Shown piece after piece: positions 15,547-15,574 of a stretch of DNA of 64,000 bases. The notes under the pieces were generated by a model. That model did no database searches, had not been told where the DNA came from, and saw nothing but the letters and a program-made list of their open reading frames with translations. How positions within the stretch are numbered: position 1 is the stretch's first letter; each line of letters begins with the position of its first letter. The position numbers were made by a program, and so were the translations under genes. Source of the DNA: an uncultured Bacteroidota bacterium (GTDB lineage Bacteria; Bacteroidota; Bacteroidia; AKYH767-A; JABDAW01); assembly GCA_903844645.1 (NCBI GenBank), contig CAIMUP010000013.1, forward strand, positions 1,428 to 65,427, given 5' to 3'.

Positions 15547-15574
15547 ACACACACACACACACACACACACACAC
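15547..15574. repeat. (AC)14 dinucleotide microsatellite
   Basis: A perfect acacac... run of 28 nt lies in the divergent intergenic region, 213 bp upstream of the oxidoreductase ATG and about 85 bp before array D. Confidence 0.95.

What the first reader, a model, noticed from the sequence alone, without database searches (positions are those of the whole stretch)
15547..15574. (AC)14 microsatellite in the divergent control region next to array D
A perfect 28-nt dinucleotide run lies between the divergently transcribed FAD oxidoreductase operon (ATG at 15334, minus strand) and the array D / P2 module. Dinucleotide tracts of this length are classic slipped-strand contingency switches. A change of one unit alters promoter-element spacing by 2 bp. 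If ORF 15441..16058 is real, it would also shift that frame, because the tract is read there as THTHTHTHT.
Basis: partly seen in the sequence, partly recalled or inferred. Interest (0 to 1): 0.5.

Follow-up and report, generated by a model that had tools for sequence, protein, structure and literature searches.

The report
Variable AC repeat heading a conserved cassette
A perfect (AC)14 microsatellite in an uncultured Bacteroidota genome is real and changes length between near-identical assemblies, and similar repeats sit at the same position in two distantly related gene cassettes, so it is probably a built-in variable element of that cassette, not a spacer in a divergent promoter.

Summary
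(AC)14 at 15547-15574 is perfect, and the next-longest dinucleotide run in the 64 kb has 4 units.

The tract is length-polymorphic. Two other assemblies of the same strain carry (AC)17, and across 9.6-12.5 kb they differ from the window by only 1-2 SNPs besides this 6-bp indel. Single-run k=31 assemblies break inside the tract.

- At 28-34 bp the tract is too long to fit between core promoter elements.
- Neither flanking gene has a Bacteroidota -7 box nearby.
- ORF 15441-16058 scores like non-coding DNA.

The new result is that the tract belongs to the right-hand unit. Two cassettes built around 39-45% identical homologues of the 233-aa orphan protein P2 have the same layout: microsatellite, then hairpin, then 21-bp array, then the P2 gene. 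One carries (AC)14 and the other (CTCTA)>=12. No comparable repeat occurs anywhere else in 887 kb of fetched DNA.

In the window an exact -7 box lies 55 nt upstream of the tract, pointing into it, and a strong hairpin starts 2 nt after it. My best reading is a slippage-variable, G-free stretch of a short leader or sRNA that tunes the P2 cassette. That mechanism is inferred; there are no expression data.

The parts
15485..15492 (+). Exact Bacteroidota-type -7 promoter box TAATTTTG, 55 nt upstream of the tract and pointing into it; putative distal promoter of the cassette
   Evidence: pattern match; in this window 20 of 67 TAnnTTTG boxes lie within 110 nt upstream of a same-strand start codon, against 2.6 expected, so the motif is informative here. 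This is the only exact box in the 742-bp intergenic region. L100 has an equivalent exact box (TACATTTG) 115 nt upstream of its (AC)14. This is a consensus match only; no TSS data.
15497..15544 (+). Weak 5' stem-loop predicted in the putative transcript, ending 2 nt before the tract
   Evidence: -12.2 kcal/mol, z = -1.47, and 16 of 200 shuffles fold as well. Not significant on its own.
15547..15574 (+). (AC)14 microsatellite; it is (AC)17 in two other assemblies. The G-free strand is the sense strand of the P2 cassette
   Evidence: perfect and unique in the window. (14 versus 17 units in near-identical DNA). (k=31 simulation compared with the observed contig breaks). (a repeat at the same position in L098 and L100/L101).
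15576..15640 (+). Strong hairpin or palindrome starting 2 nt after the tract. The outer arms are a perfect 12-nt pair, AAATTTTTTGAA / TTCAAAAAATTT, around an inner stem, and a T-rich run follows (15641-15655). It looks like a terminator or attenuator but is not canonical, because the stem base is A-U rich
   Evidence: inverted repeat I17, 100% complementary.: -20.1 kcal/mol, z = -4.55, 0 of 200 shuffles as good. L100 has a canonical terminator at the equivalent place. L098 has a hairpin that shares AATTTTTG..TAACC.
15660..15950 (+). Array D: about 14 degenerate units with a 21-bp period, each with a conserved core CCAAAGTTT(C) and a variable remainder
   Evidence: Arrays of the same type (conserved core plus variable part, 21-bp period) precede P2 homologues in L087, L094, L095, L098, L099 and L100.
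16077..16778 (+). P2, a 233-aa orphan protein with coding-like codon usage, and the gene the cassette is built around
   Evidence: no family in Pfam, NCBIfam, PHROGs or PADLOC. (2 hits in the word-indexed search). (49 cluster representatives at E<=1e-3, mostly about 230 aa). (0.214 bits/codon, like trusted genes). The structure model is unusable (pLDDT 35).
16783..16953 (+). 56-aa ORF directly after P2, followed by a terminator-like hairpin at 17025-17049; this is the likely end of the cassette's transcription unit
   Evidence: gene called. (coding-like, 0.204 bits/codon). (terminator-like sites at 17025-17042 and 17032-17049, +).
15441..16058 (+). ORF that reads the tract as (TH)n and runs through array D; probably not a gene
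   Evidence: -0.01 bits/codon, below all 24 trusted genes (minimum 0.068) and exceeded by 20% of spurious stop-free stretches; no family; product not on record; the DNA motif conserved between array and P2 is read in different frames, and after a stop codon, in L098. Caveat: the open frame is longer than in array-preserving shuffles (P = 0.018).
13754..15334 (-). Left neighbour, not part of the cassette: an FAD-dependent oxidoreductase of the PRK07208 family, first gene of an overlapping three-gene unit with a PMT_2 glycosyltransferase and an MFS transporter
   Evidence: The tract lies 213 bp upstream of its ATG. There is no exact -7 box on the minus strand in the intergenic region.

Best explanation
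The (AC)n tract is a genuine slippage-prone microsatellite. It is the first element of a recurrent, undescribed cassette in uncultured Bacteroidota, laid out as: distal -7 promoter box, microsatellite, hairpin (a canonical terminator in one relative), 21-bp array, P2-family gene. It does not sit in the core promoter of either flanking gene, and it is probably not translated. Most likely it is transcribed from the box at 15485-15492 as a G-free, unstructured stretch of a short leader or small RNA that stops or is attenuated at the hairpin at 15576-15640. Replication slippage changes its length (14 and 17 units seen). This would give the population a heritable but unstable spread of settings for how much of this RNA, or of read-through into array D and P2, is made. 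Shown here: existence, uniqueness, length polymorphism, recurrence at the same cassette position, and the adjacent significant hairpin. Inferred: transcription from the -7 box, termination at the hairpin, and any effect of length on expression.
For: Real and exceptional. Length polymorphism: (AC)14 in the window against (AC)17 in L001 and L004, with identical flanks and only 1-2 SNPs in 9.6-12.5 kb. The A8 and T8 homopolymers are identical, so this is not sequencing noise. Contigs from two single runs end 23-26 nt into the tract. The simulation shows a homogeneous 14- or 15-unit tract would not break a k=31 graph, and a homogeneous tract of 16 or more units would leave 30 nt at each contig end. 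Recurrence: L100/L101 (P2 homologue, 39% identical, different samples) has a -7 box, (AC)14, a canonical terminator, a 21/42-bp array and then the gene. L098 (45% identical, soil) has (CTCTA)x12, a hairpin, a 21-bp array and then the gene. The flanks do not align. No other repeat of this kind occurs in 887 kb, and none of the other 12 arrays in the window has one. In L100 the upstream gene is co-directional and has its own terminator, so the second terminator after the repeat implies a separate short transcript. The -7 box motif is informative in this genome, and it occurs upstream of the repeat in both loci where that region is visible. The hairpin next to the tract has z = -4.55. All three repeats put the G-free, C-rich strand on the sense strand of P2.
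Against: There are no expression data of any kind. The -7 box is a single consensus match, with about 0.5 expected by chance in this intergenic region, and it has no clear -33 element. The window hairpin has an A-U-rich stem base and an interrupted T run, so it is not a canonical terminator and the scanner did not call it. L098 has no clear T run after its hairpin. Two of the five cassettes whose upstream region is visible lack a repeat: L094 and the same-genome paralogue L095. The repeat in L098 lies at a contig end, and L100 and L101 may be two assemblies of one sample. There is no Rfam family, and covariation cannot be tested because the flanks do not align. The 14 and 17 alleles are linked to a SNP at 16053, so they may mark two strains and not switching within a clone. 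PCR stutter could also explain the k=31 contig breaks.
Confidence: 0.4

Rival explanations
1. The tract has no function. It is a neutral microsatellite, or a mutational by-product of the cassette (for example slippage promoted by replication stalling at the adjacent strong hairpin), and it varies in length only because long dinucleotide runs always do.
For: Length variation alone is expected for any 14-unit tract. This genome tolerates many polymorphic tandem repeats: three of its 21-bp arrays differ between assemblies by exact multiples of 21 bp. Two of five visible P2 cassettes lack a repeat. A 13-nt motif, GCCTCAAAACACA, 93 nt upstream resembles the tract's left edge, suggesting birth from an ACACA seed (D6; P about 0.16, so weak).
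Against: [quoted passage not shown] The chance of three long repeats falling at the same position in diverged homologous cassettes, with none elsewhere in 887 kb, is negligible under neutrality. The by-product version survives this argument, but no mechanism is known that creates AC or CTCTA runs next to hairpins, and other hairpins in the window have none.
Confidence: 0.3
2. A DNA-level spacer or phase switch. The tract sets the distance and helical phase between elements to its left (the distal promoter or the FAD promoter region) and the 21-bp-phased array to its right. Each unit then rotates one side by about 69 degrees, and expression changes like a rheostat.
For: The array period of 21 bp (two helical turns) puts its units on one face of the helix. 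The 14 to 17 unit change is 6 bp, about 206 degrees, so the two observed alleles put the flanks on nearly opposite faces. Tracts outside the core promoter can act this way, as with the H. pylori sabA T-tract rheostat (PMC4081817). The left operon encodes a GT-C glycosyltransferase, a typical kind of target for phase variation.
Against: The tract cannot lie between -33 and -7 elements, because 28-34 bp exceeds the roughly 19-bp spacer. It is 213 bp from the FAD start codon and 503 bp from the P2 start codon, whereas -7 boxes here usually lie 20-56 nt from start codons. In L100 the left neighbour is co-directional and unrelated, so any role specific to the FAD operon is not conserved. A pure spacer would not need a consistent strand orientation.
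Confidence: 0.15
3. A translational on/off switch. ORF 15441-16058 (and its counterparts in L098 and L100) is a real repeat protein, and changes of one or two units shift its frame, as with the CTCTT repeats in Neisseria opa genes.
For: Both repeat unit sizes (2 and 5 nt) are not multiples of 3. Both observed alleles (14 and 17) keep the frame open (205 and 207 aa). The repeat lies near the 5' end of the called ORF: 24 nt after the ATG in L100 and 106 nt after it in the window. Open frames across these intergenic regions are longer than in shuffles (P = 0.01-0.03). CTCTA resembles the opa CTCTT repeat.
Against: Codon usage is non-coding. There are no family hits. A 21-bp period keeps frames open automatically, and two minus-strand frames are open across array D as well. 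The -7 box lies downstream of the only start codon. L100's canonical terminator is inside its called ORF. In L100 the longest open frame is on the minus strand. The conserved DNA motif is read in different frames, and after a stop codon, in L098. L094 has no called ORF. Two in-frame alleles out of two is a 1-in-3 coincidence.
Confidence: 0.08
4. A Z-DNA or supercoil sink. The alternating purine-pyrimidine tract flips to left-handed DNA under the negative supercoiling generated between divergent transcription units.
For: (AC)14 is 28 bp of alternating purine and pyrimidine, and in the window the flanking units are divergent. Such patterns are generally avoided in prokaryotes (PMC4060949).
Against: The repeat at the equivalent position in L098 is CTCTA, which is not alternating and cannot form Z-DNA. 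In L100 the units are co-directional. The shared property is therefore repetitiveness and G-free composition, not Z-forming potential.
Confidence: 0.04

Closest known systems
Haemophilus influenzae hifA/hifB (TA)n promoter switch (from my own knowledge: van Ham et al. 1993)
   Same: A dinucleotide microsatellite in an intergenic region between divergent genes, with length varying by slippage.
   Different: The TA tract is 18-22 bp and forms the -35/-10 spacer of both promoters. Here the tract is 28-34 bp, too long for any core spacer. It lies 213 and 503 bp from the two start codons, and its conserved partner is the right-hand cassette only.
Helicobacter pylori sabA poly-T 'rheostat' (PMC4081817), and similar tracts upstream of promoters such as Neisseria nadA TAAA and Mycoplasma gallisepticum vlhA GAA (the last two from my own knowledge)
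   Same: A hypervariable tract outside the core promoter, whose length could tune expression gradually and not simply on/off.
   Different: Those tracts lie just upstream of a mapped promoter. Here the only consensus promoter box is upstream of the tract and points into it, and a terminator-like hairpin follows directly, so an RNA-level role is at least as likely.
Neisseria opa (CTCTT)n and H. pylori (CT)n coding-region repeats (from my own knowledge)
   Same: Repeat units that are not multiples of 3, lying near the 5' end of an open frame. The CTCTA unit in L098 resembles CTCTT.
   Different: The open frame here fails the coding tests.
CA-repeat RNA as the standard unstructured RNA segment (PMC5934652, PMC6193969)
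   Same: (AC)n RNA is single-stranded. In the predicted folds it stays unpaired between two hairpins, or forms the loop of a stem in L100.
   Different: Those are engineered sequences. No natural bacterial sRNA or leader with a hypervariable CA repeat is known to me, and Rfam has none matching.
Iteron arrays next to plasmid rep genes (from my own knowledge)
   Same: Direct repeats of about 21 bp sit just upstream of a gene of about 230 codons. The repeat core co-varies with the protein lineage: CAAAGTTTC-like or GGTCGG-like.
   Different: The locus is chromosomal. No Rep, PHROG or plasmid signature was found, and twelve other 21-bp arrays in the window sit beside housekeeping genes. Iteron origins are not known to carry a microsatellite.

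Membership tests
Contingency locus driven by a simple repeat (phase variation by slipped-strand mispairing) | A perfect repeat long enough for frequent slippage | tested here: met
   14 perfect units, with 17 in other assemblies.
Contingency locus driven by a simple repeat (phase variation by slipped-strand mispairing) | Tract length differs among otherwise near-identical genomes or within a population | tested here: met
   14 against 17 units with 1-2 SNPs per 10 kb. Contig breaks fit mixed alleles, but that part is indirect.
Contingency locus driven by a simple repeat (phase variation by slipped-strand mispairing) | Tract length changes expression of a linked gene, reversibly | not testable with these tools
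   No reads, transcriptomes or cultures were available.
Promoter-spacer type (hifA/B-like) | The repeat lies between the two core promoter elements | tested here: not met
   The tract (28-34 bp) exceeds the roughly 19-bp spacer. The only exact -7 box is 55 nt upstream. Reading the flanks found no suitably placed pair of boxes.
Coding-region type (opa-like) | The repeat lies inside a genuine protein-coding gene | tested here: not met
   Codon score is -0.01, against at least 0.068 for trusted genes. No homologous family. There is a terminator inside the L100 counterpart. Motif conservation is at the DNA level. One result points the other way: the open frame is longer than in shuffles.
Small RNA or leader ending at an intrinsic terminator | A promoter upstream, and a hairpin plus U-run downstream on the same strand | tested here: inconclusive
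   Window: exact -7 box, a significant hairpin, and a T-rich but interrupted tail that the scanner did not call. L100: exact -7 box and a scanner-called terminator. L098: hairpin without a clear U-run.
Small RNA or leader ending at an intrinsic terminator | Membership of a described RNA family, or structure supported by covariation | tested here: not met
   No Rfam match at gathering threshold; the weak hits are repeat artefacts. The flanks do not align, so covariation cannot be assessed.
Z-DNA-forming element | Alternating purine-pyrimidine sequence, shared by equivalent elements | tested here: not met
   The window and L100 tracts qualify, but L098 carries CTCTA at the same position.

The most novel reading that the evidence does not exclude
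The unit 'microsatellite - hairpin - 21-bp array - P2-family gene' is a previously undescribed stochastic regulatory cassette of environmental Bacteroidota. In it, a hypermutable, G-free repeat in a leader or small RNA (possibly a length-variable loading site for a termination or RNA-binding factor) sets expression of an orphan protein that recognises its own upstream array. In at least two lineages it would also set expression of neighbouring genes for proteins exported by the type IX secretion system. That would be contingency-type variation outside host-adapted pathogens, acting at the RNA level.
Probability: 0.15. Interest if true: 0.75.

Novelty: new variant of a known kind. Interest (0 to 1): 0.5.

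Why it matters
Hypervariable simple repeats are well studied as switches in host-adapted pathogens. There they sit in promoters or reading frames of surface-antigen genes. Here a repeat recurs, with different unit sequences, at one fixed position of a conserved cassette in free-living, uncultured Bacteroidota, next to a terminator-like hairpin and an array of 21-bp repeats. If its length matters, that would extend contingency-type regulation to environmental bacteria and to a leader or small-RNA setting. It would also give a first handle on the orphan P2 protein family and on the abundant 21-bp arrays of this genome. On the practical side, the tract and the arrays are where assemblies of this organism break or disagree.

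Tried and rejected
Searches that found nothing useful:
- A genome-collection scan with the FAD protein returned only distant homologues (at most 56% identity, many phyla). None had a PMT_2 neighbour or a repeat.
- Both metagenome scans found nothing: one with the tract's flanks joined by a variable gap, one with a P2 alignment.
- A viral-contig scan for P2 found nothing (an earlier attempt failed because the alignment was too divergent).
- The phage DNA search found no match.
- Rfam, PHROGs and PADLOC gave nothing relevant.
- The AlphaFold model of P2 is unusable (pLDDT 35), so no fold search was run.
- Looking up the ORF 15441 product to count alleles failed because it is not on record.
- Literature searches found no description of 21-bp arrays in Bacteroidota and no CA-repeat sRNAs.
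- The small ORFs after P2 in the window and in L100 are not detectably homologous.
- The P0009 locus has no DNA on file.

Ideas rejected:
- The tract as a -33/-7 spacer, on geometry.
- The FAD operon as the tract's conserved partner (L100 context).
- Z-DNA as the shared property (CTCTA in L098).
- Assembly or sequencing error as the cause of the 14 versus 17 difference: there are no other indels in 12.5 kb, the homopolymers are identical, and two assemblies (contig names suggest different assemblers) agree on 17.

Full report
**1. The observation**

The window carries a perfect (AC)14 run at 15547-15574. It is the only dinucleotide run longer than 4 units in the 64 kb. Random sequence of this length would be expected to hold about 1e-11 such runs, and 80 unrelated bacterial loci (703 kb) contain none above 5 units. 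Published surveys find simple repeats and alternating purine-pyrimidine runs to be generally suppressed in prokaryotic genomes (PMC4060949).

The described context is correct.
- To the left is ORF 13754-15334 (-), an FAD/amine-oxidase-type protein of the conserved but uncharacterised PRK07208 family. It overlaps a PMT_2 glycosyltransferase gene, followed by an MFS transporter gene.
- To the right is a degenerate 21-bp array, followed by ORF 16077-16778 (+), called P2 here.
- SprB and Por_Secre_tail domains next door and the promoter motif usage place the organism in the Bacteroidota.

**2. The tract varies in length**

Exact-protein look-ups recovered the same locus from other public assemblies. 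L001 and L004 carry (AC)17 with identical flanks.
- Over 9.6 kb, L001 differs from the window by one SNP plus this 6-bp indel.
- Over 12.5 kb, L004 differs by two SNPs plus the same indel.
- No other indel exists in these stretches, and the A8 and T8 homopolymers are identical, so sequencing noise is not the cause.
- The contig names (k141_... and ...scaffold_...) suggest that two different assemblers agree on 17 units.

Contigs assembled at k=31 from two single runs all end inside the tract, 26 nt in from the left and 23 or 25 nt in from the right. A simulation shows three things.
- A homogeneous 14- or 15-unit tract would not break such a graph.
- A homogeneous tract of 16 or more units would leave 30 nt at each contig end.
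- Ends at 24-26 nt are expected when alleles of 12-13 units coexist with longer ones.

This is suggestive only, because PCR stutter would look the same. The 14- and 17-unit alleles are linked to a SNP at 16053. They may therefore mark two very close strains and not switching within one clone.

Across about 45 kb compared, the only other length differences between assemblies are whole-unit changes in three 21-bp arrays.

**3. What the tract is not**

*Not a core-promoter spacer.* This genome uses the Bacteroidota -7 box TAnnTTTG. Twenty of its 67 occurrences lie within 110 nt upstream of a same-strand start codon, against 2.6 expected, and most are 20-56 nt from the ATG. Neither the FAD gene nor P2 has an exact box in that range. 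The tract is 213 and 503 bp from the two start codons. At 28-34 bp it is longer than the roughly 19-bp spacer of this promoter type. Reading the flanks found no suitably placed pair of boxes.

*Probably not coding.* ORF 15441-16058 does read the tract as (TH)n, but the evidence is mostly against a gene.
- Its codon score is -0.01 bits per codon. That is below all 24 trusted genes (minimum 0.068), and 20% of spurious stop-free stretches score higher. P2 and the other orphan genes score 0.20-0.23.
- It has no family match.
- A 21-bp period keeps frames open automatically, and two minus-strand frames are also open across the array.
- One result points the other way: the open frame is longer than in shuffles that preserve the array (P = 0.018).
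- In relatives, however, the only conserved motif between the array and P2 is read in different frames, and after a stop codon, in L098. The ORF called in L100 contains a canonical terminator.

**4. What it belongs to**

P2 looked like an orphan in the word-indexed search. The exhaustive search found a small family: 49 cluster representatives, mostly about 230 aa. Five further loci could be read.
- **L100/L101** (39% identical; different samples, so another organism): an exact -7 box TACATTTG; then (AC)14 115 nt downstream; then a scanner-called intrinsic terminator 41 nt further on; then a 21/42-bp array; then the gene. The upstream gene (EamA family) is co-directional and has its own terminator.
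- **L098** (45% identical; soil metagenome): the contig starts in (CTCTA)x12; then a hairpin that shares AATTTTTG..TAACC with the window's hairpin; then a 21-bp array; then the gene.
- **L094** (49% identical) and **L095** (a 26% identical paralogue in the window's own genome): arrays but no repeat.
- **L087 and L099**: these contigs start inside the array, so the upstream region is not visible.

So three of the five cassettes whose upstream region is visible carry a long simple repeat at the same position. In contrast:
- none of the window's other 12 arrays has one;
- the flanks of the three repeats do not align.

What is conserved is therefore the presence of a repeat, and possibly its G-free sense strand, not its sequence. 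That pattern is expected if variability or lack of RNA structure is selected, and it is not expected of a neutral repeat. It also shows that the tract's partner is the P2 cassette and not the divergent FAD operon.

**5. How it most likely works**

In the window the only exact -7 box in the 742-bp intergenic region is TAATTTTG at 15485-15492 (+). It lies 55 nt upstream of the tract and points into it. A long hairpin starts two nucleotides after the tract (15576-15640). It has perfect 12-nt outer arms, z = -4.55, and 0 of 200 shuffles fold as well. A T-rich run follows it. In the predicted fold of 15495-15720 the tract stays unpaired between a weak 5' stem-loop and this hairpin. In L100 the tract forms the loop of a short stem ahead of a canonical terminator.

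The simplest reading is a short plus-strand transcript, either a leader or a small RNA of about 150-210 nt. It would hold a variable-length, unstructured, G-free segment and would end or be attenuated at the hairpin. Slippage would then spread the population over different settings.

Which step is sensitive to length is not known. It could be read-through past the hairpin, loading of a termination or RNA-binding factor on the C-rich segment, or RNA stability.

A DNA-level alternative remains open. The array's 21-bp period (two helical turns) puts its units on one face of the helix. The 6-bp difference between the two alleles rotates whatever lies to the left of the tract by about 206 degrees relative to the array.

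I put 0.40 on the transcribed, variable cassette element, 0.30 on a functionless repeat or mutational by-product, 0.15 on the DNA phase or spacer switch, 0.08 on a translational switch, and 0.04 on Z-DNA. The Z-DNA idea fails on the CTCTA repeat in L098 and the co-directional context in L100.

**6. Comparison with known systems**

The behaviour shown here, slippage-driven length polymorphism of a perfect repeat, is that of a contingency locus.
- It fails the test for the promoter-spacer type (hifA/B).
- It fails, or is at best doubtful, for the coding type (opa).
- The closest mechanistic precedents are tracts outside the core promoter that act as rheostats (sabA, PMC4081817).
- I know of no natural leader or sRNA with a hypervariable CA repeat, and Rfam has no match.

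I rate it as a new variant of a known kind. The cassette around it (hairpin, 21-bp array, orphan P2 family) appears to be undescribed.

**7. Limits**
- There are no reads, transcriptomes or cultures.
- Only three repeat-bearing cassettes were found. One repeat lies at a contig end, and L100 and L101 may come from one sample.
- The source organism has no close genome in the collection as searched, and it was not found in the JGI metagenomes.
- The P2 structure could not be modelled.

Noticed in passing
window 1859-2044, 4111-4341, 8711-8919, 15660-15950, 28847-29093, 37951-38213, 41289-41426, 43869-44152, 49949-50152, 51563-51690, 54568-54722, 58018-58151, 61985-62200: There are thirteen tandem arrays in 64 kb. 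All have a period of 21 bp (or 42/63 as higher order), and each has its own unit sequence. Most sit in intergenic DNA beside ordinary housekeeping genes: thioredoxin reductase, two SurA-type PPIases, an aminotransferase, DPP-IV and RibBA. No description was found in the literature searched. The strict period of two helical turns across unrelated sequences is unexplained.
   Followed up: partly
window 37951-38213, 49949-50152, 54568-54722, compared with L090 and L091: Array copy number differs between assemblies of the same strain by exact multiples of 21 bp: -168; -63 and -42 (gene spacing in a record without DNA implies +21); and +21. The rest of the DNA shows about 1 SNP per 5-10 kb. The changes in long, near-perfect arrays could be assembly collapse. 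The +21 in the degenerate array at 54568 is harder to dismiss.
   Followed up: partly
window 51521-51690: The array after the aminotransferase gene repeats that gene's last seven codons beyond its stop codon. The gene ends ...AGDDDNL*, and the array in the same frame reads AGKDDNY repeated. It looks as if a C-terminal heptad was duplicated out of the gene, or as if the stop codon is recent.
   Followed up: no
window 16077-16778; L087, L094, L095, L098, L099, L100: The P2 family has about 49 cluster representatives, roughly 230 aa each, with no known domain. In every locus read it is preceded by a 21-bp array made of a conserved core of about 10 nt plus a variable part. The core differs by lineage: CAAAGTTTC-like in the window, L087 and L095, and GGTCGG-like in L094 and L098. 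This resembles iterons next to an initiator or autoregulator gene, but no such function was shown.
   Followed up: partly
L094 2938-2956, L098 393-411, L100 2353-2366; window about 15975-15992: A DNA motif, TTGAATATCAAT(AC), is conserved between the array and the P2 start codon in three relatives and only weakly in the window. It may be the proximal promoter or operator of P2.
   Followed up: partly
window 17126-19681; L100 3661-4941: In two lineages the P2 gene and one or two small ORFs are followed by a gene for a protein exported by the type IX secretion system. In the window it has SprB repeats, a reprolysin-type metalloprotease domain and Por_Secre_tail. In L100 it has Laminin_G_3 and Por_Secre_tail. 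In the window a terminator-like hairpin at 17025-17049 separates them.
   Followed up: no
window 4111-4366: A 42-bp-period array (4111-4341) has an exact -7 box on the minus strand at 4359-4366 pointing into it, and there is no minus-strand gene downstream. The array itself may be transcribed.
   Followed up: no
window 60432-62200: The ribBA gene has no FMN riboswitch, and no Rfam family is found anywhere in the 64 kb at gathering threshold. Instead a 21-bp array lies upstream of its -7 box at 61741-61748.
   Followed up: no
L095 1420-1470 and 2472-2535 (same genome as the window): A palindromic element whose arms are themselves 7-nt tandem repeats (GTTTAAG.../...CTTAAAC) occurs twice within 1.1 kb, flanking a PorP_SprF gene. 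It looks like a REP-like element or a bidirectional terminator.
   Followed up: no
window 13754-15334: The FAD protein is a full-length match to the uncharacterised NCBIfam equivalog NF005546. Its best matches in the species-representative genome collection are only 48-56% identical and are scattered over Acidobacteriota, Melainabacteria, Planctomycetota, Bacteroidota and others. None of the 80 loci has the PMT_2 neighbour seen here.
   Followed up: partly
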